Source: Candidatus Versatilivoraceae bacterium (GTDB taxonomy: Bacteria; Acidobacteriota; Terriglobia; Versatilivoradales; Versatilivoraceae). Taken from it: a stretch of DNA of 64,000 bases. The notes beneath the pieces are model-generated. The model ran no database searches. It worked only from the letters and a program-made list of their open reading frames with translations, and was not told where the DNA came from. The position numbers and the translations under genes are program-made. Each line of letters starts with the position of its first letter. Within the stretch, counting starts at the first letter, position 1. This document shows, piece after piece, positions 4,453 through 64,000 of this stretch. The stretch is from the NCBI GenBank assembly GCA_965197895.1, contig OZ240232.1, positions 228,211 through 292,210 on the forward strand, in the 5' to 3' direction.

Positions 4453-4655
4453 TGGGTCTCCTATGTCCTCAACCAGGGCAGAGAACTGAAAACTGGATTG
4501 GTAGCAACCTGCCGGAGTGATGAACACGGGCTGCGGGCGTGGATCCCATCCCAAGTCCCGGAGAACGTTCCCCGTAGCTGCTTGCGCCGGCTTCCCATCG
4601 ATTCTGGTCTGGAACCGGCCACCGAGCGGAGCGGTGAGCGCCCGGCTGAGAAGGC

Positions 4656-5537
4656 TCAGACGCCTTTGGCAATTCTCTCCTGCAAGTCGGCCATTTGCTC
4701 CATCTGTTTCATGAAGGCGATGGTTCCGGTGAGGATGGTTCTCCAATCGGGTTTGGCCGGAACGCTGTCGAGAGAGATATAGCCCGAGAACCCCATGGCG
4801 TTGAGAGTCCGCACAACCTGCAGAAAGTCGATATGACCGGTTCCGGGCGCCTGCCGGTTGTTGTCGGCCAAATGGATATGCATCAGCCGGTCACCGGCGG
4901 CCCGGAGGGCGTCGTTCAGGGGACCATCTTCCATGTTTACGTGGAAGAAATCGGCTAGGACGCCCAGGTTGCTGGCTCCGATCTCTTCAACGATGTCTTT
5001 GGCTTCAACCAGGCTGTTCAGAAAACCGGCGTAGCCTTCGAAACGATTGATGGGCTCGATGGCGATCTCGACGTTGCGTTCGGCTGCATACTCTGTGATT
5101 TCTCGGGTGGATTTGATGAAATTGGCGCGCAGGACGTTTCGGGGCGTCTTGGCCACCGGGTACTCGGATTGCGCCGGAGAGGCGACAATTTCAAAGACGG
5201 GAGGCTCGTCGAAGGTCGTTGCCAGATCGACGCTTTTTTTGGCATAGTCTACGCCGTGGCGCCGCTCCGATTCGTCACTCGAGGCCAGGTCCCGGACTTC
5301 GCCCGCGTGCCACGGTGCCCAGGCTCCAATCAAAGCCGGCACTTGTAGGCCCAGGGAGGTGGCCAGGTCCTTCACCTCGTCAAATTGCCTGGCATCGATG
5401 CGGTCCGGCTCGGCGTCCAGGTCGACACCGTCATAGCCCGCTTGGGCCACAGCCTCCAGAACCTCGCGGGGTTTCTCCCAGACGTTGCCGCCGCTCGACG
5501 CCAGCGTGCAGAGAATCACTGAATACTTGTGCCCCAT
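4656..5537 (-). CDS. sugar phosphate isomerase/epimerase (xylose-isomerase-like TIM barrel)
   Basis: The pattern ...IEPINRFEG...HIHLADNNRQAPGTGHIDF is characteristic of AP_endonuc_2. ATG at 5537 has a GGAGG SD 9 nt upstream, whereas the track start at 5558 lacks one. Confidence 0.8.
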   Translation of the reverse strand: MGHKYSVILCTLASSGGNVWEKPREVLEAVAQAGYDGVDLDAEPDRIDARQFDEVKDLATSLGLQVPALIGAWAPWHAGEVRDLASSDESERRHGVDYAKKSVDLATTFDEPPVFEIVASPAQSEYPVAKTPRNVLRANFIKSTREITEYAAERNVEIAIEPINRFEGYAGFLNSLVEAKDIVEEIGASNLGVLADFFHVNMEDGPLNDALRAAGDRLMHIHLADNNRQAPGTGHIDFLQVVRTLNAMGFSGYISLDSVPAKPDWRTILTGTIAFMKQMEQMADLQERIAKGV

Positions 5538-53999: not shown

Positions 54000-55511
54000 C
54001 TAAATTTTGGTGTGGTAGACGGGTTGGAGTTTCTGCTGGATCTCGAGGTAGAGGTTAAAGAGCGAGCTGTAGCGTTCCTTTCGCTTGGGGTCCGGCGAGA
54101 GGACCTGTGTCTCTTGCCTGGACCGGGCAAGCGGCTGGGAGACGTCGGAGTAGAGACCGATTCCCACCAGTCCGAGAAGGGCTGCCCCGTAAGCAGAGTC
54201 TGTCCCCCGCGAAACGTGTAAGGTCTCGCCAATGACATCACAGACAATCTGCGTCCACAGGCTTCCTGCCGTACCCCCACCAACAGCGGTGATGGTGCCC
54301 CGCCGGACCCCGAGGTCATCCAGCACTGTCAGCGCATCGCGCAGAGAAAAGGCAGTGCCCTCGTAGGCAGCGCGGACAAAGTGCTCGGGACGATGGCTGA
54401 AGGTTGCTCCCGTGAAGCTGGCACGCAGCCGGCTATCCCAGTAGGGGCAGCGCTCTCCTGAAAGGTAGGGGTGAAAGAACAGCCCTTCGGCACCCGGTGG
54501 GATGGCGGCAACCGTCGAATCCCATTCTTGGAAGGTCCGGGGCCGGTCGGAGCCGATGGTGCTGAACACCCAATGGAGAGCGGAAGTGCAGGAGTTGGTG
54601 CCGGCCTGAGAGTACCAGAGCGGGGGCAGGGGGTGCGGGTAGGTGATGAGTCGCGGGTGAGGGCGGGGACCGTCGACCACCAGGTGGATCCCTCCCGCTG
54701 TAGCCAATCTGAGCAAGCAGTCACCGGCTCGAACCACCCCGGCGCCGTAGGTTTCAGCCGCACTGTCCAGGGTCCCGTTGATCACCGGCACGCCGGCGGG
54801 AATTCCGAGCTCCCGGGCCGCAGGTGCCGTCAGTGACCCCACCGGCTCAGTGGAGGGGAGCACCTGGGGAAGTACCTCGGGGGTGAGTCCGAGCGGCTCC
54901 AACAAGCGCTCGGACCAGCGCTCGGCTTCCGCGTCCAGGAGCATGGAGGAAAGGGCCGTTGCCGGATCGGTGGTCTTCCGTCCCGTGAGCCAGCTCGACA
55001 GGTAATCCTTGGAGAGAAGCACCCGACGGACCTTCGACCACAGCTCTCTTTCCTGCCGACGAATCCAGAGGAGCTGAGGCAGGGTCCAGGTTGGAGAAAC
55101 ACTATTGTGGGACTGTCTGAAGATTTCGTCACCCTGCCGCGACTTCAGCTCGTCCACCTCAATTTGGGAGCGCTGGTCATACCACAGGATAGCGTTTCTC
55201 AGAGGGCGGCCGTCAGCGCCGAGCAGTACGGCGATATGGGCGGCGCTGGACAAGGAAATGCCTCCCACAAGCTCAGGGGGAACGGATCTCTCTGACAGAA
55301 GCTCACGGGTCGCTTGGGTCACTGCCGGTATCCAGCGCTCCGGATCCTGCTCCGCCCAGCCGGCACGCGGGGTGATGGTGGGAAAGCCGGCACTGCAGGT
55401 CCCCAGAGGTCTGCCTGAAGCATCGACCGCACAGACCTTGCAGGAAGAGGTGCCCAGGTCGATGCCGATGAGATAGGGTGGATCTCCTGATTGGATTGTG
55501 TCAGTGATCAT
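54000..55511 (-). CDS. FGGY-family carbohydrate kinase (xylulokinase/gluconokinase-like)
   Basis: N-terminal YLIGIDLGTSSCKVCAVDASGRPL. C-terminal GGG.AGS.LWTQI.ADV.G motif. Confidence 0.85.
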   Translation of the reverse strand: MITDTIQSGDPPYLIGIDLGTSSCKVCAVDASGRPLGTCSAGFPTITPRAGWAEQDPERWIPAVTQATRELLSERSVPPELVGGISLSSAAHIAVLLGADGRPLRNAILWYDQRSQIEVDELKSRQGDEIFRQSHNSVSPTWTLPQLLWIRRQERELWSKVRRVLLSKDYLSSWLTGRKTTDPATALSSMLLDAEAERWSERLLEPLGLTPEVLPQVLPSTEPVGSLTAPAARELGIPAGVPVINGTLDSAAETYGAGVVRAGDCLLRLATAGGIHLVVDGPRPHPRLITYPHPLPPLWYSQAGTNSCTSALHWVFSTIGSDRPRTFQEWDSTVAAIPPGAEGLFFHPYLSGERCPYWDSRLRASFTGATFSHRPEHFVRAAYEGTAFSLRDALTVLDDLGVRRGTITAVGGGTAGSLWTQIVCDVIGETLHVSRGTDSAYGAALLGLVGIGLYSDVSQPLARSRQETQVLSPDPKRKERYSSLFNLYLEIQQKLQPVYHTKI

Positions 55512-55839
55512 CGATCAACCTGTTTTCCGACACCAGCAACGTTTCCTTGGCTTCAGATCCCATTGGTAGGGGTTCGGCTACCGAGGTCGGCTGGTAAAGG
55601 TCCGGCTCGGCCTCCCGGTTGTTGGCGGTGAGACAGGTGATGTCCGGGTGCACGCGGTAGTTTTTAAAGGCAGTGGCAGCCCAGGAGGCCGCGGGGGAGA
55701 GTTGTCTCCAACCCCTCAACGACCCTGCCGTTACAAGCAGCATCACCAGAATGAACGCCCGCAAGAAGATGTGCTGGTACAGGTTTTTCACCTCCCTGGG
55801 CAGTTTCGGAAATCTAGACTGGAACGCCGCCGAAGTCAA
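55501..55839 (-). CDS. small hypothetical membrane protein
   Basis: One TM helix; overlaps the FGGY start by 11 bp. Weak support. Confidence 0.3.
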   Translation of the reverse strand: MTSAAFQSRFPKLPREVKNLYQHIFLRAFILVMLLVTAGSLRGWRQLSPAASWAATAFKNYRVHPDITCLTANNREAEPDLYQPTSVAEPLPMGSEAKETLLVSENRLIDDH

Positions 55840-56323
55840 TCTTGTTTAGCTCCAGGAAGCGCCAAGCGATAGCCGCCGAAATGCACAGGCCCGTCATGCG
55901 TTCCTCATGGTTTCCGCGGTCACCTATCCGCCCTCGAACGGCGCCACCGTCGGCCCTCGGGCCTCTAAAGATCAAATCGATCCATGTTACATTCTGTTGC
56001 ACTCCGTCACACTCTGTCGGCATTGGGGAATGCCTCTCAAGTTCGATAACTCGTTGTTACAGAAGAATTATCGTAGACTCACAGCCCCGATTCTGCTGAA
56101 CTCCGTGAGGTATTCGAATTGGACACCCTTTCCCGTTCCTTCGGTCCGGGCCTCCGACCTATTCGCCGACCCACCTTCGGGCTGCGCGCCCGCCTTCGCT
56201 CCTCTTACAGGTAGACGGACAGGCGACTACCCCGGTTTCTTGGCAACGCTATGCTGCTTGAAGACCGAAAGCGGTTCGGAGATACCTCAGGGGATAGGTC
56301 GGTATCAGGGCAAAAGCCGATAG

Positions 56324-56587
56324 GTGACGGTCGAGCGGCCGCTGCGGCTCGCCGTCGATCTGTCTCCGGAACGCCGCGCGTGGTTCCGCGGTGCCTGCGG
56401 CGAAGGGCTGCCCTACGCCCCCGATGCCTGGTACGACCCGGCCAGGGTCAAGACCGGCTACGAGATCAGCTTCACCCGCTACTTCTACCAGTCCCGGCCG
56501 CTGCGCACGTTGGAAGAAATCCGGGTCGACATCCTGGCGCTGGAGCAGGAGACCGAAGGGCTGCTGGATGAAATTATCGGCGGGTAG
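56324..56587 (+). pseudogene. hsdM: type I R-M HsdM C-terminal remnant (last ~70 aa only)
   Basis: VKTGYEISFTRYFYQSRPLRTLEEIRVDILALEQETEGLL is the conserved HsdM C-terminus. No N6_Mtase core lies upstream. Confidence 0.7.
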
Positions 56588-56741
56588 CGTGGGGGTGCTG
56601 TTATTAAATGCAGCCTTTAGTAAGTGCGAATTTCTCTTCCATATTAAACTCAACCTTTACCAAAGCTGTAACGATGCTCTATAGTAAACACAGCCTTTAA
56701 TATGAGCCTTCTAAGTGGCCATACGAAAGCGCCAGTTTACT

Positions 56742-57920
56742 ATGGAAGACCGTTCTCCAACCTCAATCCGAGCAGGGCGATACATCACGCAGCCAGCCGG
56801 CTACAGGACTTTCCTTCCGGCGCCGTTGCCGCCCGACCCGCCCGTCCGGATCACCGGGGGAATACAAGAGCTGCTCTCTCAGGCCGCCCTCGCACTCGGG
56901 CGTCTCGACGGGTCAATCCAAACGCTGCCCAATCCGGATCTGTTCGTTTACATGTACGTCCGCAAAGAGGCGGTGCTATCGAGCCAGATTGAAGGGACGC
57001 AGAGCTCGTTGCAGGATCTGCTAGCGGCTGAAGCGAAGATATTCGCGCCGAATCGAGCGAACGACGTAAACGAAGTGGCGAACTATGTCAAAGCCATGAA
57101 TCACGGGCTGAGAAGGCTGTCTGAGCTACCCGTTTCGGTCCGACTGATCCGCGAAATCCATACAAAACTCCTCCAAGACGTGCGGGGCTCTCATCTCACC
57201 CCCGGCGGGTTGCGAACCAGCCAGAACTGGATCGGACCTGCTGGCTGCACGCTCAGGGAGGCCCTCTTTGTCCCGCCTCAACCCCATCAGGTCGTGCAGG
57301 ATATGTCGCAATTGGAACGGTTTATCCGCGTCGACAAAGGACTGCCTCTATTGATCAAAATCGGATTGGTACACGCCCAATTTGAGACGATCCACCCCTT
57401 CCTGGATGGCAATGGTCGCGTCGGGAGGTTGCTTATCACCTTTCTGCTTTGCGAGCAGGGAGTGTTGCGAAAGCCGGTTCTCTACCTGTCCCATTTCTTC
57501 AAGCAGCACCGACAACAATATTACGAAGAACTGCAATCGGTGCGCGACGCCGGAACCTGGGAACGGTGGCTCACCTTCTTTCTGCGCGGCATTGTGGAGG
57601 TGAGCGGACAGGCTACCGACACGGCACGGCGGATACTCGCTCTCCGCGAAGAGCATCGTCGTATGATCAACGAAAACTTCGGCCGCGCCGTCGGCAACGG
57701 TCACCGCACGCTGGAATATCTCTACGAACACCCGATCGTATCGGTGGGCGACGTGCAGGGTTTAACTGGAACGACGTACCCGGCAGCGAACAATCTGGTC
57801 GCGCGGATGGTCGATAGCCGCATCCTGCACGAGTTTACCGGACAGGCACGCAACCGGGGATTCATGTATCAGAGCTACATTGAACTGTTCCACGAGACTG
57901 GGCCCGAGGCTGACCTCTGA
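56742..57920 (+). CDS. Fic/DOC family protein
   Basis: HPFLDGNGRVGRLL Fic motif. ATG 56742; the track start at 56715 is GTG. Confidence 0.85.
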   Translation: MEDRSPTSIRAGRYITQPAGYRTFLPAPLPPDPPVRITGGIQELLSQAALALGRLDGSIQTLPNPDLFVYMYVRKEAVLSSQIEGTQSSLQDLLAAEAKIFAPNRANDVNEVANYVKAMNHGLRRLSELPVSVRLIREIHTKLLQDVRGSHLTPGGLRTSQNWIGPAGCTLREALFVPPQPHQVVQDMSQLERFIRVDKGLPLLIKIGLVHAQFETIHPFLDGNGRVGRLLITFLLCEQGVLRKPVLYLSHFFKQHRQQYYEELQSVRDAGTWERWLTFFLRGIVEVSGQATDTARRILALREEHRRMINENFGRAVGNGHRTLEYLYEHPIVSVGDVQGLTGTTYPAANNLVARMVDSRILHEFTGQARNRGFMYQSYIELFHETGPEADL

Positions 57921-58109
57921 TCGCCTGCCTCCAACCTTACTCCGCCAAAGCCTACGATCCGCCGTACAAGGCAAGCCAATATGTCTACAGCTATATTCAG
58001 GACAACATCGAAGATTGGGTGGAAGAGGCAATCTGGATTCGCAACTAACTCTGGAATGGAGTAGCACCATGACCGAACACCCGACGCAGTTTAAGGAGGA
58101 CTCACCCGC

Positions 58110-58384
58110 AGTCCAGGCTCATTATTGCCAAGGTGACAGCACAGACATCTCCACTGAGCACTACCATTGACCGTGCCCGTCACCAAATCGAGTTGTTGCG
58201 CGAATACCGCGCCCGCCTGATCGCCGATGTGGTCACCGGCAAGCTGGACATGCGCGAGGCGGCGGCACGGCTGTCTGACGAAACCGAGGCATCTCAACCG
58301 ATGGACAGGTCAGACGCCCTGCCCACTCTCGAAGAAGACGTGATGACTAGCCTCGACTCGATCACTGAAAGCACCGAATCATGA
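58110..58384 (+). pseudogene. hsdS: HsdS 3'-terminal fragment (conserved C-terminal helix only)
   Basis: AKVTAQTSPLSTTIDRARHQIELLREYRARLIADVVTGKLD is ~95% identical at the DNA level over ~150 bp to 61197-61340 in the longer hsdS. Confidence 0.7.
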
Positions 58385-59277
58385 CGAATCACCGGGACCA
58401 CGATTACCTTCTCGGCTTGGTGCGCGAATTGCGCAACTTGCCGTATGAGACTGAATGGGTTGAGTTCAAGGTCAACTACTGGAAACCGCACGCCATCGGA
58501 GAGTATATCTCGGCACTGGCCAACGCCGCGGCTCTCCATGCCAAGATCCACGCATACATGCTCTGGGGGATTGAGAACGGAACGCATGACGTCGTCGGCA
58601 CGGACTTTTCGCCGGACACCGAGAAGAAGGGCAACGAGCCGCTTGAAACGTGGCTGCTGCAACTTCTGAATCCTCGCATTGACTTCCGCTTTCACGAGGT
58701 AACGGCCAGCGGACGGCGCGTCGTGCTCTTGGAGATCGACCGCGCGTCTCAGCACCCGGTCACATTCGAAGGCGTTGAGTACATCCGAGTGGGCGGCACC
58801 ACCAGAAAGCTCAAGGACTATCCCGAGAAGGAACGGGCACTCTGGCGTGTGTTTGACCGGGTGGGCTTCGAAGACGGAATCGCCGCCGAACGGGTGAGCG
58901 ACGAGGATGTTCGGCTCTGCGAGGAGCGCGGCAGCGGGATCGACAAGGTTGTTTTCGAGGTAGAACTTTACCAGTTGCCTGCACCGCTTTTTGAAGCGCC
59001 GGAAGGTTTCACGCGCACCGTCTTGTTCGCACATAGGGCTCTGGCCGACATGGACACAGCGGATCGGGTGCGGGCCTGTTACCTGCACGCCTGCCTGAAA
59101 TACGTGACGCGAGCTTTCCTGACCAACGCATCTCTAAGGGAACGGTTCGGCAACAAGGAGAAAAATAGGGCAGTCGTGTCGCGCTACATCCGAGAGGCGG
59201 TGGACGGAGGTATGATCAAGCCATTTGACGAACATGCCAGCAGGAGGATGATGAAATACGTTTCTTTTTGGGCTTGA
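58381..59277 (+). CDS. AlbA_2 (Schlafen-like divergent AAA) domain protein, putative DNA-binding regulator
   Basis: ETEWVEFKVNYWKPHAIGEYISALANAAALHAKIHAYMLWGIENGTHDVVGT matches the AlbA_2 N-domain. Its ATG overlaps the hsdS-fragment stop (ATGA). Confidence 0.65.
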   Translation: MTNHRDHDYLLGLVRELRNLPYETEWVEFKVNYWKPHAIGEYISALANAAALHAKIHAYMLWGIENGTHDVVGTDFSPDTEKKGNEPLETWLLQLLNPRIDFRFHEVTASGRRVVLLEIDRASQHPVTFEGVEYIRVGGTTRKLKDYPEKERALWRVFDRVGFEDGIAAERVSDEDVRLCEERGSGIDKVVFEVELYQLPAPLFEAPEGFTRTVLFAHRALADMDTADRVRACYLHACLKYVTRAFLTNASLRERFGNKEKNRAVVSRYIREAVDGGMIKPFDEHASRRMMKYVSFWA

Positions 59278-59547
59278 TTGTTGTGAATGGGTCATTGACA
59301 GATAACATGAAAAATAGGCCTGATTTCTCGCAAGTTATTGAATACAAAAATGTTTTTTAATTGATGGGTAATTGATGGAAGGGAAGGTCAGTGGGCTGTG
59401 ATGGCTAAGCAAGTTATTGATTTCATTGAAAAATTGCAAAAACTGCACGACACCGTCTGGTGATGCCGATGAGCCGGTCGGCGTTTCATTGCGTGGTCGC
59501 CGACAATTTCATATATTGTGAATCAGAAGAACTGTGAGACTGTGTTT

Positions 59548-59835
59548 ATGAAAAATATCACCGTATCTGTGGACGAAGAGACCTATCGGCTGTCCCGCGT
59601 CAAGGCGGCGGAACGGGGCACTTCGGTTTCGGCGTTGGTACGTGGCTACCTCAAAACCCTCATCCGCGAGCAAGCCGACGGGCCTAGGGCCAGTGAACAA
59701 GGCATAGAGACCGAGTCCGAACGGCGCCGGCTGTTGAACGAGGTGCTTGCGGACTTTGATGCGCGAGGCGTGGGATTGCGTATGGCTGACAATCTCCCCC
59801 GTGAAGCCCTGTACGACCGCGATGCGCTTCGTTGA
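59548..59835 (+). CDS. vapB: ribbon-helix-helix VapB-like antitoxin
   Basis: ATG 59548 gives MKNITVSVDEETYRLSRVKAAERGTSVSALVRGYL, an RHH fold. Overlaps the downstream PIN gene by 14 bp. Confidence 0.7.
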   Translation: MKNITVSVDEETYRLSRVKAAERGTSVSALVRGYLKTLIREQADGPRASEQGIETESERRRLLNEVLADFDARGVGLRMADNLPREALYDRDALR

Positions 59836-60313
59836 TACCAACGTGTTGCTCTATGCAGTAAGCGTTTTGCCGGAGGATGCCAACAAGCGCCGCCGCGCAC
59901 GCACGCTGCTGACCGAGGCTGACCTTGCGGTATCGGTGCAGGTCCTGCAGGAGTTCTACTATCAGGCGACGCGCCCAAGCCGCTCGGCGCCGCTGACGCA
60001 CGCCGACGCTTTGCTGTTTATGGAACCAATCATGAGCTTCCATGTACAGGCCGTCACACTCGAGGTGTTCCGCGCCGCGCTTTCAATCCGCCAACGCTTC
60101 GGGTTGTCCTATTGGGATAGCGCGATCCTGGCCGCCGCTGAGCTTCAGTGCGATGCTGCAGGCAGCCACCCTGTGGGCGGGAACAGCATCGGCCAAGCCG
60201 AAGGAGAGCCATGGCGCCATTCCCGGTTGATCCAAGTCGGGGAGATGGCCGAGGCTGTGCCGGGCTCTGTGCGGGCGGGACGCCCGCGCTCCCAGGAAGC
60301 CGTCATCCCATGA
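59822..60313 (+). CDS. vapC: PIN-domain VapC-like toxin
   Basis: MRFVDTNVLLYAV...DLAVSVQVLQEFYY...GLSYWDSAILAAA supplies the PIN acidic residues. The C-terminal ~40 aa are atypical, so a possible frameshift. Confidence 0.7.
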   Translation: MRFVDTNVLLYAVSVLPEDANKRRRARTLLTEADLAVSVQVLQEFYYQATRPSRSAPLTHADALLFMEPIMSFHVQAVTLEVFRAALSIRQRFGLSYWDSAILAAAELQCDAAGSHPVGGNSIGQAEGEPWRHSRLIQVGEMAEAVPGSVRAGRPRSQEAVIP

Positions 60314-60328
60314 CATCACTTTTCTGAC

Positions 60329-61411
60329 GTGCACCCGATCTTCAATGTAATTTCTGGCAAGGCTGGTATCGTGGATGCCAAAATGCCAGAGTTTGTCTTC
60401 AGTAACTTCTTATTGCGAGTTGTTGCACACGGTCGTGTTGTGAGCCCGCGCTACCTTTTTCTATTGCTTAGTGGCCACCTCACCCGCGAGCGTGTCAAAC
60501 GCATGGTTACAGGATCAACTTACCCCAATCTGCGAGTCGACGAATACACCTCCGCTCTCTTACCGATTCCACCCCTCTCTGAGCAAGCTGCCATTGTCCG
60601 TTACCTCGACCACGTGGACCGGCGGATTCAGCGCTACCTCAACGGCAAGCAAAAGCTCATCCGGTTGCTGGACGAACAGAATCAGGCCGTCATCCACCGC
60701 GCCGTCACCCGGGGCCTCGACCCCAACGTCCGCCTCAAGCCCTCCGGCGTCGAATGGCTGGGCGATGTGCCTGCGCATTGGGGAATTTCTCGGACAAAGA
60801 ATGAATTCCATTGCTGGAATCACCGGCGCGTGCCATTGAGTGCCAGCGAAAGAGGATTGATGAGCGTACGTCGATACGATTACTATGGAGCATCTGGCAC
60901 CGTAGACAAGGTTGAAGACTAACTGTTCGATAGCGAACTACTGCTTATCGCTGAGGATGGGGCAAATCTTATCCTCCGTAACTTACCACTGGCAATTATC
61001 GTTCGCGGGAAATTCTGGGTGAATAACCACGCACATGTCTTGAAACCGAAAAGAGGGAATCTCGAATATCTCGCGGCAGTTATGGAAAGGCTAAACTACA
61101 CCCCCTGGATTTCAGGTACTGCACAACCGAAGCTCACCCTAGACAGATTGATGAACATTGCCATCGCAGTGCCACCGAGAGCAGAACAAGATGACATTAT
61201 TGCCAAGGTGACAGCACAGACATCTCCACTGAGCACTACCATTGACCGTTCCCGTCACCAAATCGAGTTGTTGCGCGAATACCGCACCCGTTTGATCGCC
61301 GACGTGGTCACCGGCAAGCTGGACGTGCGCGCGGCGGCGGCGTTTACGGAGGAAGCTGAGGGAGACCCGGAACTTTATGATGAAGCCGAAAGGCCGGAAC
61401 CGCTTGACTAA
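60329..61411 (+). pseudogene. hsdS: type I R-M HsdS, 5'-truncated and carrying an in-frame TAA in the conserved DYLF motif
   Basis: The two track ORFs 60329..60922 and 61019..61411 are in the same frame. The sequence reads ...GTVDKVED-TAA-LFDSELLLIAEDGANL...KFWVNNHAHVL, where HsdS has Tyr at the stop position. The N-terminal TRD is only ~90 aa. Confidence 0.75.
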
Positions 61412-61443
61412 GCCGGTGGTCCCGTGGGAGAGATGGACTGATT

Positions 61444-62550
61444 ATGAGAAACAAGCTTCATGCAATAACGCTCAAGGGATTCAAGACCATTCAAGAGCTG
61501 GATGACTTCAAGCCTGGCTCCTTAACGGTACTCATTGGACCCAATGGCGCGGGCAAGTCCAACTTCATTTCTTTCTTTCGTATGATGAGTTGGATGCTGG
61601 CAGACCCAGACAATCTTCAATTTCACGTGGCGCAACATGGTGGAGCCAGCAAACTTTTGCACGACGGCTCGGACAGGACCCATGAGATTGAAGCCGAGTT
61701 AACGATTCGGACCGACGCCGGCGAGAACCAATATGCGTTCCGGCTGTTTTATGCAGCCGGGGATAGGTTGATTTTCGCTGATGAGCGTTACCGTTTTTCT
61801 CGCGATGATTACGACGGCATTGCACCTTGGCGAGAAACGGGTGCCGGGCACCGCGCTCCGCAACTCCTTGACAAGGCATCCGAGGACGATACTGCTCGCT
61901 TCATTCGAAACGTCCTAAGGAAAATAGTTTTATACCAATTTCACAACACGTCGGCCACAGCCCGCATCCGGAGCAAGTGGAGCGTGAACGACAACCGTTA
62001 CCTGAAGGAAGATGCGGCCAATATCGCTCCGCTCCTGCTTCGCCTCAGGGAGGAAGACGGCAGGTGTTACCAGCGGATTGTAGATACCGTCCGCCTGATC
62101 CTACCCTTCTTCTCGGATTTTGAACTGGAACCTGAGAACGGTCATCTGCTGCTTGCCTGGCGTGAACGAGACAGTGACCAGGTGTTCGATGTTTCGCAGG
62201 CGTCGGACGGCATGTTGCGGGTCATAGCGCTCGTCATGCTTCTCCTTCAACCGGAAGAGAACTTGCCGGACGTTTTGATTCTGGACGAGCCGGAGCTTGG
62301 ACTCCATCCCTACGCCATTACTGTGGTCGGTGGCCTGATACGGGCCGTGTCCACAAAGGTCCAGGTCATTGTCGCCACTCAGTCCACGGCGTTCGTCGAC
62401 TGCTTCGAGCCTGAGGACATCGTCGTTGTCGAGCGTGAAGGTCGAAAATCCATATTCCGACGGCTGGGTACCGAGGCTCTGGCAGAGTGGCTCAAAGACT
62501 ATACGCTTTCCGAGTTGTGGGAAAAGAACGTACTCGGGGGGCGACCGTAG
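61444..62550 (+). CDS. AAA_21/ABC-type ATPase (SMC-like, OLD/AbiL-type)
   Basis: Walker A GPNGAGKSNF. C-terminal LILDEPELGLHP (Walker B/D-loop) and VIVATQS. Confidence 0.85.
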   Translation: MRNKLHAITLKGFKTIQELDDFKPGSLTVLIGPNGAGKSNFISFFRMMSWMLADPDNLQFHVAQHGGASKLLHDGSDRTHEIEAELTIRTDAGENQYAFRLFYAAGDRLIFADERYRFSRDDYDGIAPWRETGAGHRAPQLLDKASEDDTARFIRNVLRKIVLYQFHNTSATARIRSKWSVNDNRYLKEDAANIAPLLLRLREEDGRCYQRIVDTVRLILPFFSDFELEPENGHLLLAWRERDSDQVFDVSQASDGMLRVIALVMLLLQPEENLPDVLILDEPELGLHPYAITVVGGLIRAVSTKVQVIVATQSTAFVDCFEPEDIVVVEREGRKSIFRRLGTEALAEWLKDYTLSELWEKNVLGGRP

Positions 62551-63227
62551 TGGCCGTAAGGTTACATTTCATCGTTGAAGGACAGACCGAAGAGACTTTC
62601 GTAAATCGGGCCTTGCGCCCACACTTGGCGAATCTGTCCATCTGGGTTAGAGCCCGGTGTGTGATGACGAGTCGTAGGCGCGGCGTCAGGCATCGCGGAG
62701 GTATCGGGAATTATGCGCAAGCGAAGAGAGACATCAATGCTTGGATGATGGAGGACCAGAACCCAGACGCACGCTTCACAACCATGTTTGATTTGTACGG
62801 GCTGCCGGCAGACTTTCCAAGTTACGAGAATGCTGTGAGAGTAAGCAATCCGTATGACCGCGTCAGGGCTTTGGAGCACGCCTTGAAGGAAGACATTTCT
62901 GATCCGCGATTCATTCCTTATCTTCAGCTTTACGAATTCGAGGCGCTATTGTTGTCCGATCCTCAGAAACTCGACTCGCAGTTTTACGATCATGGTGTCG
63001 GGATACAGAAACTTGTGGAGATAGCTTCTGGCTTCGAATCACCGGAGCACATCAATGACGGAATCAACACCGCCCCGTCGAAGCGAATTACTGATGCCAT
63101 ACCGGAATATGAAAGAATGAAGGCGTCCGCGGGTCCCATTGTGGCTGAGAAGATCGGATTGCCCACTCTGCGATTGCAATGTGAGCATTTCGGAGAATGG
63201 ATTGGTCAATTGGAGCGTCTGGGCTGA
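62550..63227 (+). CDS. DUF4276 family protein
   Basis: GTG at 62550 overlaps the ATPase TAG stop (taGTG). LHFIVEGQTEETFVNRAL...TTMFDLYGLPADFP matches the DUF4276 N-terminus. Confidence 0.8.
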   Translation: MAVRLHFIVEGQTEETFVNRALRPHLANLSIWVRARCVMTSRRRGVRHRGGIGNYAQAKRDINAWMMEDQNPDARFTTMFDLYGLPADFPSYENAVRVSNPYDRVRALEHALKEDISDPRFIPYLQLYEFEALLLSDPQKLDSQFYDHGVGIQKLVEIASGFESPEHINDGINTAPSKRITDAIPEYERMKASAGPIVAEKIGLPTLRLQCEHFGEWIGQLERLG

Positions 63228-63302
63228 GCAGTTCCGAGGCCAGGAAGCTTTCGTGCCGAATGGCATCATCGCGGTCGTCATACGCGTCGCGCCGCCGGCT
63301 CT

Positions 63303-64000
63303 GAGAGTCTTCGACTGAGGTGGTTCCGCTTTTTAGACAGCTGAACGGCAATTTTAAGGTGTATTCCTCAGTTGTGAGAATCTGCCGTTGGGGGACAGTA
63401 TAGCAGCAGTTGGGGGCGCTGGCGGAGGGAGGGCGGAGCCCGACCGGAGCCGGGGTCCGGTATGTCTCTTACCGACTTTCCCCTCTACCTTAAGCGGCCC
63501 GTAGCGCTTCTTTCGGCGTTCCCCCGCCCAGCGCCGAGTGAGGCCGCCTCCGGTTGTAAAACTCCAGCCATTCCCCGATCATCCGTTCGGCCTGGAATCC
63601 GTCCTCCGGTTCGGCCAAGTACACCGACTCGTACTTCAACGAGCGCCACAACCGCTCGATGAAGAGGTTGTCCATCCAGCGTCCCCGCCCGTCCATCGAC
63701 ACCTGTACGCCCATCTCCAGCAGGCGCCCCGTGAAGGCCTCGCTCGTCAACTGGCTGCCCTGGTCCGTGTTGAAGATCTCCGGCTTGCCGTAGCCCCCCA
63801 ACGCTGACTCCAACGCACTCACGCAGAACCCGCTGTCGAGCCTGTTCGACAGCTGCCACGCCAGCCCACAGCGGCTCGCCCAGTCCATCACTACCACCAG
63901 ATAGAGATACCCCCGCCTCATCGGAATGTAGGTGATGTCAGCACACCAGACCTGGTGGGGCCGTCTGATCTCCAGTCCCCTCAGCAGGTAGGGGTAGATC
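63303..64000 (-). mobile_element. IS3-family element, right part (continues beyond the window)
   Basis: OrfB DDE/rve domain 63490..64000 (DQGSQLTSEAF...YNRRRPHSALGGGTP). The terminal region 63303-63489 begins TGAGGTGG. Confidence 0.8.
63490..64000 (-). CDS. IS3-family transposase OrfB (integrase-core DDE), 5' part outside window
   Basis: rve-domain motifs; the ORF is open at 64000. Confidence 0.85.
   Translation of the reverse strand, partial: IYPYLLRGLEIRRPHQVWCADITYIPMRRGYLYLVVVMDWASRCGLAWQLSNRLDSGFCVSALESALGGYGKPEIFNTDQGSQLTSEAFTGRLLEMGVQVSMDGRGRWMDNLFIERLWRSLKYESVYLAEPEDGFQAERMIGEWLEFYNRRRPHSALGGGTPKEALRAA

What the first reader, a model, noticed from the sequence alone, without database searches (positions are those of the whole stretch)
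56324..61411. Decayed type I R-M locus re-used as a defence/toxin islet
Only the last ~70 aa of hsdM survive, and no hsdR is present. Between hsdM and hsdS lie a Fic protein, an AlbA_2 (Schlafen-like) protein and a VapBC pair, whose PIN gene ends 16 bp before the 5'-truncated hsdS. A ~150-bp, ~95%-identical direct repeat of the hsdS 3' end (58110-58260 and 61197-61340) brackets AlbA_2-VapBC-hsdS. This repeat is a ready substrate for deletion or duplication, reminiscent of hsdS shufflons but in direct orientation.
Basis: partly seen in the sequence, partly recalled or inferred. Interest (0 to 1): 0.5.

Follow-up and report, generated by a model that had tools for sequence, protein, structure and literature searches.

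The report
Wrecked type I restriction defence island
This is the wreck of a restriction-modification gene cluster that already carried other anti-phage genes; the restriction genes and two passengers are broken, two passenger systems look intact, and the whole thing is an ordinary case of a known pattern.

Summary
An hsdM 3' remnant, a Fic gene, an AlbA_2 gene, a VapB/PIN pair and a 5'-truncated hsdS are present. A 147-nt, 95%-identical direct repeat lies at 58120-58266 and 61195-61341. No hsdR lies in the window or within 10 kb to its right.

- hsdS-B has an in-frame TAA.
- AlbA_2 lacks 190 internal residues.
- PIN has lost its C-terminus.
- The locus continues into an intact HEC-01 pair (ABC ATPase plus DUF4276) and an IS3 element.

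"Re-used" is the wrong direction. Relatives from other metagenomes carry the same passengers inside intact operons:
- hsdM-Fic-hsdS-HEC-01-hsdR
- hsdM-X-hsdS-AlbA_2-VapB-PIN-hsdR
- hsdM-Fic-hsdS-ATPase-AlbA_2-hsdR

The window is therefore a mosaic of two such operons. It was eroded by at least five deletions, a nonsense mutation and IS activity. One sister assembly has a further IS inside hsdS-B.

Only SoFic and HEC-01 look functional. The repeat marks two related hsdS genes, not a shufflon. Three assemblies all keep both copies.

Embedding of defence genes in type I operons is already described. Interest is low.

The parts
56322..56587 (+). hsdM 3' remnant. It is an 87-codon ORF starting at 56324. 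The left deletion edge is at about 56321/56322, and about 70 codons are also missing internally.
   Evidence: PADLOC MTase_I model positions 602-660 of 661, E 7e-19. Bases 56322-56346 are 100% identical to L073 hsdM 4632-4656, and 56400-56580 are 83% identical to L073 4920-5100. Protein alignment with four full HsdM proteins.
56602..56707 (+). Three 26-nt direct repeats spaced 40 bp apart in the hsdM-Fic intergenic region. They may be an operator or promoter for Fic; this is inference.
   Evidence: the repeat finder family D2. The repeats are conserved in L003, the locus with the closest Fic relative.
56742..57920 (+). SoFic-type Fic protein (392 aa from ATG 56742; the ORF opens at GTG 56715). 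It appears intact, with HPFLDGNGR and an SSQIEG inhibitory motif.
   Evidence: Pfam Fic_N E 3e-29 and Fic E 1e-20. PADLOC SoFic E 1e-117 over model positions 5-359 of 361. The motifs were read from the translation.
57945..58119 (.). Filler of unknown origin between the Fic 3' flank and the hsdS-A remnant.
   Evidence: Homology to L003 stops at 57944. There were no blastn or tblastx matches in 115 related loci (all fetched by then except the four copies of this locus) and no Pfam hits.
58120..58384 (+). hsdS-A 3' remnant: the C-terminal conserved region (repeat copy A, 58120-58266) plus an acidic tail. Its stop overlaps the AlbA_2 start (ATGA).
   Evidence: PADLOC Specificity_I C-terminal positions, E 2e-11. 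tblastn with L074 HsdS residues 650-731. Sequence read.
58381..59277 (+). AlbA_2 / HATPase_c_4 / DNA-binding protein with an in-frame 570-bp (190-aa) internal deletion. The junction lies at about 58910-58917.
   Evidence: Pfam AlbA_2 E 1e-19, and HATPase_c_4 matched only at model positions 49-88 of 89. Nearly all of the best 120 hits are about 488 aa. Alignment. The nucleotide junction was mapped against L073 and L074.
59278..59440 (+). Conserved non-coding element with a tandem TAATTGATGG motif (59358-59378). In relatives it lies upstream of the hsdR transcription unit.
   Evidence: 80% nucleotide identity to L073 11495-11657 (immediately upstream of hsdR), to L074 in two copies upstream of vapB-PIN-hsdR, and to L028 in two copies.
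59548..59835 (+). VapB-like ribbon-helix-helix antitoxin, 95 aa, apparently intact.
   Evidence: Pfam FitA-like_RHH and RHH_1 matches, both below their curated cut-offs. It aligns along its length with the L074 107-aa protein that precedes PIN.
59822..60313 (+). PIN (VapC-like) gene with its 3' end replaced. The homologous part ends at about 60140-60160, and an unrelated tail of about 50 aa follows.
   Evidence: Pfam PIN model positions 2-103 of 120, against 2-111 for the L074 PIN. Alignment with the L074 PIN diverges after AILAAAE-LQCDA, losing the SED motif. Nucleotide homology stops at 60138.
60329..61411 (+). hsdS-B pseudogene. About 90 N-terminal codons are missing and there is an in-frame TAA at 60920-60922. 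It contains repeat copy B (61195-61341).
   Evidence: PADLOC Specificity_I match starts at model position 93-99 of 448. Residue 7 aligns to residue 96 of the 465-aa P0128, and the stop aligns to Tyr. Both ORF pieces are in the same frame.
61444..62550 (+). HEC-01A ABC-type ATPase (AAA_21), 368 aa, intact. Walker A is GPNGAGKS.
   Evidence: PADLOC HEC-01A E 9e-132 over model positions 1-362 of 363. Pfam AAA_21 E 6e-29.
62550..63227 (+). HEC-01B (DUF4276, TOPRIM-like), 225 aa, intact.
   Evidence: Pfam DUF4276 E 3e-55. PADLOC HEC-01B E 1e-77 over model positions 10-226 of 230.
63316..64000 (-). IS3-family insertion sequence, cut by the window end. The full element is 1356 bp in the sister contigs. 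It has no target-site duplication.
   Evidence: Pfam rve and rve_3. Terminal inverted repeats at L002 11873-11891 and 13210-13228. The flanks are GAC and TAC. The full transposase genes are seen in L001 and L002.

Best explanation
The locus is the eroded remains of a composite defence island built on type I restriction-modification operons that already carried embedded anti-phage genes.

Structure:
- The outer frame is hsdM'-SoFic ... hsdS-B'-HEC-01A-HEC-01B. It matches intact operons of the form hsdM-Fic-hsdS-HEC-01-hsdR.
- The inner block is hsdS-A 3' end-AlbA_2-conserved intergenic element-VapB-PIN'. It matches intact operons of the form hsdS-AlbA_2-VapB-PIN-hsdR.
- Two operons of one family were therefore joined. 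Either one was inserted into the other, or they lay in tandem and the DNA between them was deleted.

Decay:
- hsdR is lost.
- The 5' part of hsdM is deleted and the remnant has an internal gap.
- The 5' part of hsdS-A is deleted.
- AlbA_2 has a 570-bp internal deletion.
- The PIN 3' end and the hsdS-B 5' end are deleted at the join.
- hsdS-B carries a nonsense codon.
- An IS3 sits at the right edge, and one sister strain has a further IS inside hsdS-B.

Current function:
- Restriction and modification from this locus are dead (shown).
- What can still work are the two self-contained passengers (inferred from intact sequence only). SoFic is an auto-inhibited AMP-transferase that the literature describes as acting by abortive infection. 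HEC-01 is an ABC ATPase plus TOPRIM-like nuclease pair, resembling PARIS and OLD in parts.

The 147-nt direct repeat is the C-terminal conserved region of the two hsdS genes. Its right edge is a recombination or gene-conversion breakpoint. Its left edge in copy A is a deletion junction.
For: - Domain assignments and their extents.
- Intact relatives with the same passengers in the same order: L073, L074 (including the same ATGA hsdS/AlbA_2 overlap), L078/L079, L003 (hsdM-Fic-SIR2-HerA-hsdS) and L071 (hsdM-Fic remnant-hsdS-orf-hsdR).
- Other cargo in the same operon family: L120 and L121.
- Junctions mapped at nucleotide level against relatives.
- AlbA_2 family length is about 488 aa against 298 aa here.
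- The PIN model coverage is shortened.
- No HsdR or further HsdM similarity anywhere in the window. No hsdR within 10 kb to the right.
- Three independent assemblies are collinear at 99.8-99.9% identity. One carries a 1300-bp IS with a 5-bp duplication at 60467-60471 inside hsdS-B, so that gene is dispensable.
- Repeat anatomy: the first ~70 nt are shared only by the two window copies, the last ~70-100 nt are conserved at 83-93% in hsdS genes of other loci, and identity drops to about 65% just after position 147.
- Embedding of defence genes in type I R-M, BREX and DISARM operons is described in bioRxiv 10.1101/2024.01.29.577857, PMC11411939 and PMC12707154.
Against: - The order of events, and whether insertion or tandem-plus-deletion joined the two operons, cannot be resolved. 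Both join regions contain about 175-180 bp of filler with no match anywhere.
- Activity of SoFic and HEC-01 here is inferred from intact sequence only. In the one published test, HEC-01 gave no protection against the phages tried.
- The in-frame deletions in AlbA_2 and in the hsdM remnant leave open reading frames, so residual function of the short products is not excluded.
- I could not scan the rest of the about 5.5-Mb genome for another type I system.
- The relatives with intact operons come from other organisms, so the ancestral state of this particular lineage is inferred, not observed.
Confidence: 0.8

Rival explanations
1. One reading: the type I locus decayed first, and the dead scaffold was then colonised by independent toxin and defence genes (Fic, AlbA_2, VapBC), forming a new islet.
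For: - The R-M genes are indeed dead while Fic is intact.
- Defence islands do accrete genes.
- At least 50 of the 69 Fic-homologue loci showed no type I gene with my limited queries, so SoFic also travels alone.
Against: - The same genes in the same order sit inside intact operons in L073, L074 and L078/L079.
- The hsdS-A stop overlaps the AlbA_2 start exactly as in intact L074.
- AlbA_2 and PIN are themselves damaged, which fits joint decay rather than later arrival.
Confidence: 0.07
2. The two hsdS pieces form a working or switchable specificity module. Recombination between the direct repeats changes specificity, or an orphan HsdS is used by hsdM/hsdR genes encoded elsewhere.
For: - The direct repeat has a 55-nt perfect run, long enough for RecA-dependent recombination.
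- Its right edge looks like an old recombination breakpoint.
- The rest of the genome could not be searched.
Against: - hsdS-B lacks about 90 N-terminal residues and has an in-frame stop.
- hsdS-A keeps only the last 87 codons.
- The repeats are direct, not inverted, and no recombinase gene is in the locus.
- One strain tolerates an IS inside hsdS-B.
- All three assemblies keep both repeat copies.
- None of the best 120 HsdS relatives comes from a contig the size of this genome's.
Confidence: 0.03
3. The repeat arose from a segmental duplication of a single hsdS within one operon, not from the joining of two different operons. The different tails arose afterwards.
For: - The first ~70 nt of the repeat are specific to the two window copies and are not shared with any other hsdS found. 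This fits common descent of both copies from one B-type gene.
- Mismatches are not significantly clustered (Fisher p = 0.10).
Against: - Tail A with AlbA_2-VapB-PIN is syntenic with L074, including the ATGA overlap. Tail B resembles P0128-type HsdS tails.
- Identity collapses from 95% to about 65%, with an indel, immediately after position 147. This points to a breakpoint between two lineages rather than gradual divergence.
- A hybrid origin remains compatible with the best explanation: a B-type gene recombined with an incoming A-type module inside the conserved region, with a second B-type copy retained.
Confidence: 0.1

Closest known systems
Type I R-M operons with embedded defence genes (PrrC in EcoprrI; TgvAB in Vibrio cholerae VPI-2; 'guilt-by-embedding' of Payne et al. 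2024)
   Same: Accessory defence genes lie between hsdM, hsdS and hsdR on the same strand. Relatives of this locus show exactly that with Fic, AlbA_2, VapBC, HEC-01, SIR2-HerA, GmrSD and others. Literature.
   Different: Here the host R-M genes are dead and two of the passengers are damaged. It is also a mosaic of two such operons rather than one.
SoFic (single-gene Fic anti-phage system)
   Same: It matches the PADLOC SoFic model over its full length and has Fic_N plus Fic domains, the HPFxDGNGR motif and an N-terminal SxxxEG inhibitory motif.
   Different: - Activity was not tested here.
- No homologue was identified of the 47-aa AS1 gene reported downstream of E. coli Sofic (PMC12249575).
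- This copy is embedded between hsdM and hsdS rather than standing alone.
HEC-01 (ABC ATPase plus TOPRIM-like DUF4276; resembles PARIS AriAB and OLD/Gabija in parts)
   Same: It is an adjacent two-gene pair, and both proteins match the HEC-01A and HEC-01B models over their full length.
   Different: - HEC-01 was defined as embedded in Hma systems. Here and in L078/L079 it is embedded in type I R-M between hsdS and hsdR.
- It has no demonstrated defence activity.
Phase-variable hsdS shufflons / epigenetic invertons (for example the Streptococcus pneumoniae ivr locus)
   Same: There is more than one hsdS copy in a locus, sharing a conserved repeat.
   Different: The repeats are direct, not inverted. 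There is no invertase. Both copies are non-functional fragments. No variants were seen in three assemblies.
VapBC toxin-antitoxin pairs
   Same: A ribbon-helix-helix gene overlaps a PIN gene by 14 nt, as in intact L074.
   Different: The PIN C-terminus, including the last conserved acidic residue, is replaced by unrelated sequence. The toxin is therefore probably inactive.

Membership tests
Functional type I R-M system | Intact hsdR (HSDR_N plus SF2 helicase/ResIII) | tested here: not met
   tblastn with three HsdR proteins found nothing in the window at E <= 1. None lies within 10 kb to the right in L001/L002.
Functional type I R-M system | Intact hsdM (HsdM_N plus N6_Mtase) | tested here: not met
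   Only an 87-codon 3' remnant is present, and Pfam finds no N6_Mtase.
Functional type I R-M system | Intact hsdS with two target-recognition domains and two conserved regions | tested here: not met
   hsdS-B lacks about 90 N-terminal residues and has an in-frame TAA. hsdS-A is only a C-terminal remnant.
Type I R-M operon with embedded defence genes | Non-R-M defence genes lie between hsd genes, co-oriented, and this recurs in related loci | tested here: met
   All genes from 56324 to 63227 are on the + strand. The same arrangement with intact hsd genes is seen in L003, L073, L074, L078/79, L120 and L121.
SoFic | Fic_N plus Fic domains, the HPFx[DE]GNGR catalytic motif, and a full-length match to the SoFic model | tested here: met
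   (E 1e-117, model positions 5-359 of 361).
SoFic | Anti-phage activity / AMPylation | not testable with these tools
   This needs an experiment. The literature gives EF-Tu AMPylation (abstract of bioRxiv 10.64898/2026.07.09.737422) and abortive infection (abstract of PMC12249575).
HEC-01 | An adjacent ABC-type ATPase (HEC-01A) and a TOPRIM-like DUF4276 protein (HEC-01B), both full length | tested here: met
   PADLOC E 9e-132 and 1e-77, Pfam AAA_21 and DUF4276. The pairing is conserved in most of the longer HEC-01A homologue loci.
VapBC toxin-antitoxin | A PIN domain with all four conserved acidic residues | tested here: not met
   The Pfam PIN match ends at model position 103 of 120. Alignment to the L074 PIN diverges before its SED motif.
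AlbA_2/HATPase_c_4 DNA-binding protein family (about 488 aa) | Complete AlbA_2, HATPase_c_4 and C-terminal DNA-binding regions | tested here: not met
   190 residues are missing between AlbA_2 and the last 40 positions of HATPase_c_4.
hsdS shufflon / phase-variable type I system | Inverted repeats between hsdS copies plus a site-specific recombinase | tested here: not met
   The only long repeat is direct. No recombinase domain was found in the locus ORFs. No rearranged variants were seen among three assemblies.

The most novel reading that the evidence does not exclude
The C-terminal conserved region of hsdS, together with the conserved hsdM 3' end and the conserved element upstream of hsdR, may serve as portable homology anchors. 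Through them, embedded defence cargo would be swapped between type I operons of unrelated bacteria.

On this reading the window preserves a frozen intermediate of such a swap. It would be a merodiploid junction in which a B-type hsdS recombined with an incoming A-type 'tail-AlbA_2-VapBC' module inside the conserved region, leaving two hsdS ends in direct orientation.

The evidence compatible with this:
- The sharp identity drop at the right edge of the repeat.
- The tail co-varying with the downstream cargo.
- The different cargo behind near-identical conserved regions in L003, L028, L073, L074 and the window.

None of it is decisive. Purifying selection on the HsdS-HsdM interface plus ordinary horizontal transfer explains the same data.
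Probability: 0.2. Interest if true: 0.45.

Novelty: new member of a known kind. Interest (0 to 1): 0.2.

Why it matters
The value is mainly in annotation and as an illustration. The example shows three things:
- Type I R-M operons of this family are carriers of many different embedded defence genes.
- Self-contained passengers (SoFic, HEC-01) can outlive the R-M host genes.
- Automated tools would call "VapBC", "AlbA_2" and "hsdS" here although each is broken.

It also gives natural type I R-M contexts for HEC-01. That candidate system has no demonstrated activity, and these contexts may help choose hosts and phages for testing. It does not open a new question.

Tried and rejected
- Looked for remnants of hsdR or more of hsdM anywhere in the window with tblastn at E <= 1. 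None found.
- Tried to identify the two filler segments (57945-58119 and about 60150-60328) and the 810 bp left of the hsdM remnant. blastn and tblastx against the related loci and Pfam gave nothing.
- Tested whether mismatches inside the repeat cluster, which would mark a crossover inside it. They do not (Fisher p = 0.10), so I do not claim an internal mosaic.
- Looked for a tRNA integration site (none) and for Rfam families in 55000-64000 (none).
- Looked for deletion variants between the repeats. Only two other contigs carry the locus and both keep both copies. Exact-sequence look-ups of the window's own Fic and of a 246-aa version of HEC-01B found nothing, because of start-codon or one-residue differences.
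- Tried to spot an intact hsdS from the same genome by contig-length signature among the best 120 HsdS relatives. None found. This does not exclude a divergent system elsewhere.
- A PDB sequence search with the PIN protein gave no match.
- One script compared positions without allowing for a 1-bp indel and produced meaningless output (second part). It was redone correctly.

Full report
**1. What is in the sequence**

All ORFs from 56324 to 63227 lie on the + strand. In order they are:
- An 87-codon ORF (56324-56587) matching only the last 59 positions of a 661-position type I methyltransferase model (PADLOC, E 7e-19).
- A 392-aa Fic protein (56742-57920). It has Fic_N and Fic domains and matches the SoFic model over its full length at E 1e-117. 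It carries HPFLDGNGR and an SSQIEG inhibitory motif.
- An hsdS C-terminal fragment (58120-58384).
- A 298-aa AlbA_2 protein (58381-59277).
- A ribbon-helix-helix gene (59548-59835) overlapping a PIN gene (59822-60313).
- An hsdS in two same-frame pieces (60329-60922 and 61019-61411), separated by a TAA at 60920-60922.
- An AAA_21 ATPase (61444-62550) and a DUF4276 protein (62550-63227). These match the PADLOC HEC-01A and HEC-01B models over their full length at E 9e-132 and 1e-77.
- An IS3-family element from 63316 to beyond the window end.

The direct repeat is at 58120-58266 and 61195-61341. It is 147 nt long, 140/147 identical, with a longest perfect run of 55 nt. The host is a planctomycete, judged from PSCyt1/PSCyt2/PSD1 and DUF1501 proteins in the window (inference).

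**2. No hsdR and no other hsdM**

None of the window's largest ORFs is an R-M gene. tblastn with three HsdR proteins and one full-length HsdM from relatives found nothing at E <= 1 apart from the hsdM remnant.

The same locus occurs in two long-read metagenome contigs that are 99.8-99.9% identical to the window: L001 (a 5.5-Mb contig) and L002. They extend 10 kb past the window. After HEC-01B comes a complete IS3 and then sulfatase genes, with no hsdR. The IS3 has 19-nt terminal inverted repeats but no target duplication (flanks GAC and TAC). That fits an IS-associated rearrangement having removed what lay to its right; this is inference.

**3.

- hsdS-B: residue 7 aligns with residue 96 of a 465-aa relative, and the TAA aligns with a Tyr.
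- AlbA_2: nearly all of the best 120 family hits are about 488 aa. The window copy lacks 190 internal residues, from just after the AlbA_2 domain to the last 40 positions of HATPase_c_4. At the nucleotide level, 570 bp present in L073 and L074 are missing at about 58910-58917.
- PIN: alignment with the 140-aa PIN of L074 is good up to AILAAAE-LQCDA and then fails. An unrelated tail of about 50 aa replaces the part that holds the last conserved acidic residue. Pfam coverage is 2-103 of 120, against 2-111 for L074.
- hsdM remnant: the first 25 nt are 100% identical to L073 hsdM about 165 codons from its end. Homology then resumes 210 nt further on in L073 than in the window, so about 70 codons are also missing internally.
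- In L001 a 1300-bp ISAZ013-family IS sits inside hsdS-B, with a 5-bp duplication of 60467-60471.

**4. Relatives show the ancestral architecture**

- The closest Fic (84% identity, L003) lies in integrase-hsdM-Fic-SIR2-HerA-hsdS.
- L071 (Pirellulaceae SH449) has ATPase-hsdM-(37-aa Fic remnant)-hsdS-orf-hsdR.
- Full-length AlbA_2 relatives lie in two informative loci. L073 has hsdM-small ORF-Fic-hsdS-ATPase-AlbA_2-hsdR. L074 has hsdM-PRTase_CE-NADAR::hsdS-AlbA_2-107 aa-PIN-hsdR.
- In L074 the hsdS stop and the AlbA_2 start overlap by ATGA, exactly as at 58381-58384 in the window. The VapB and PIN genes are homologous to the window's.
- The closest HEC-01A relatives (75% identity, L078/L079) lie in hsdM-Fic-hsdS-HEC-01A-HEC-01B-hsdR.
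- The closest hsdS-B relatives carry yet other cargo: GmrSD, Mrr, DUF433, Macro.

This type I family is therefore a habitual carrier of embedded defence genes. The window combines a B-type frame (hsdM'-Fic ... hsdS-B'-HEC-01) with an A-type block (hsdS-A end-AlbA_2-intergenic element-VapB-PIN'). Embedding of this kind is described in the literature:
- PrrC within EcoprrI (PMC12707154).
- TgvAB within the VPI-2 type I operon (PMC11411939).
- A systematic survey that also defined HEC-01 as an ABC ATPase plus TOPRIM-like pair (bioRxiv 10.1101/2024.01.29.577857).

**5. The repeat**

- The last 70-100 nt correspond to the conserved C-terminal region of HsdS. They are 83-93% identical to hsdS genes in L003, L011, L028, L073 and L074.
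- The first ~70 nt are shared only by the two window copies.
- Just after position 147, identity falls to about 65% with an indel. Tail A then follows the L074 type and tail B the P0128 type.
- To the left of copy A there is no hsdS-like sequence at all, whereas copy B is preceded by VPPRAEQDD.

So the left edge of copy A is a deletion junction. The right edge of the repeat is a recombination or gene-conversion breakpoint at the end of the conserved region. Mismatches within the repeat (positions 56, 92, 97, 98, 109, 131, 138) are not significantly clustered (p = 0.10), so I claim no crossover inside it.

The repeat could still support RecA-dependent deletion, but all three assemblies keep both copies. 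There is no recombinase, and the repeats are direct, so this is not a shufflon.

**6. How it most likely works now**

Shown:
- The locus cannot restrict or modify DNA.
- The AlbA_2 and PIN genes are damaged.

Inferred:
- SoFic and HEC-01 remain as self-contained modules.
- SoFic proteins are auto-inhibited AMP-transferases. They are reported to be toxic, to act by abortive infection, and to AMPylate EF-Tu (PMC12249575 and bioRxiv 10.64898/2026.07.09.737422).
- HEC-01 resembles PARIS and OLD in pairing an ABC ATPase with a TOPRIM-like protein, but it gave no protection in the one published test.
- Among the three haplotypes, the two HEC-01A differences are synonymous, and the two SoFic differences are conservative replacements. 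HEC-01B has one difference, Arg to Cys. This is too few to infer selection.

**7. Verdict**

The locus is a new, badly eroded member of a known kind. Interest is low.

The most novel reading still open is that the conserved hsdS end acts as a homology anchor for cargo exchange and that this locus is a frozen intermediate. My data are compatible with that but do not require it.

Noticed in passing
window 59278-59440 (motif 59358-59378); L073 11495-11657; L074 11469-11572 and 11620-11721; L028 13281-13298 and 13378-13395: A conserved AT-rich non-coding element with a tandem TAATTGATGG motif follows AlbA_2. In relatives it sits just upstream of the hsdR unit (or of vapB-PIN-hsdR). L028 has no detectable AlbA_2, so the element tracks hsdR rather than AlbA_2. 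It may be the promoter or operator of the restriction-subunit transcript in this type I family. It has no Rfam match.
   Followed up: partly
window 56602-56707: Three 26-nt direct repeats, spaced exactly 40 bp apart and sharing a CAGCCTTTA core, lie between the hsdM stop and the Fic start. They are conserved in the closest Fic locus, L003. They may be an operator for Fic expression.
   Followed up: partly
L001 7724-9023 (insertion site = window 60467-60471): One sister assembly carries a 1300-bp ISAZ013-family IS with a 5-bp target duplication inside the hsdS-B pseudogene. This is a presence/absence polymorphism among populations that are about 99.8% identical.
   Followed up: yes
window 63316-64000 (full element L002 11873-13228): The IS3-family element at the right edge of the island has 19-nt terminal inverted repeats but no target-site duplication. 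This hints that it mediated a deletion or recombination, possibly the loss of hsdR.
   Followed up: partly
L074 6761-10004: In an intact relative, the specificity subunit is fused to an N-terminal NADAR domain (736 aa) and is preceded by a PRTase-CE protein embedded between hsdM and hsdS. This is an unusual HsdS fusion.
   Followed up: no
L004 10001-15359 and L071 10001-10111: There is parallel decay elsewhere. L004 keeps Fic next to an AlbA_2 C-terminal remnant and an hsdR split into two ORFs. L071 shows the converse, an intact hsdM-hsdS-hsdR operon with only a 37-aa Fic remnant.
   Followed up: partly
window 57945-58119 and about 60150-60328: Two segments of about 175-180 bp at the joins between the operon pieces match nothing in the 115 related loci or in Pfam. 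The first ends in a plausible protein C-terminus (QYVYSYIQDNIEDWVEEAIWIRN*). Their origin is unknown.
   Followed up: partly
L003 11310-14926; L120 7494-9830 and 18546-20198; L121 9076-14542: Other cargo sits in the same type I family: SIR2-HerA between Fic and hsdS; GmrSD, Mrr and a 550-aa AlbA_2 protein; and a nucleoside deoxyribosyltransferase-like protein, DUF433 and a Macro-domain protein. Several of these contigs come from ENA assemblies with neighbouring accession numbers to those of the window's sister contigs, which may mean the same study.
   Followed up: no
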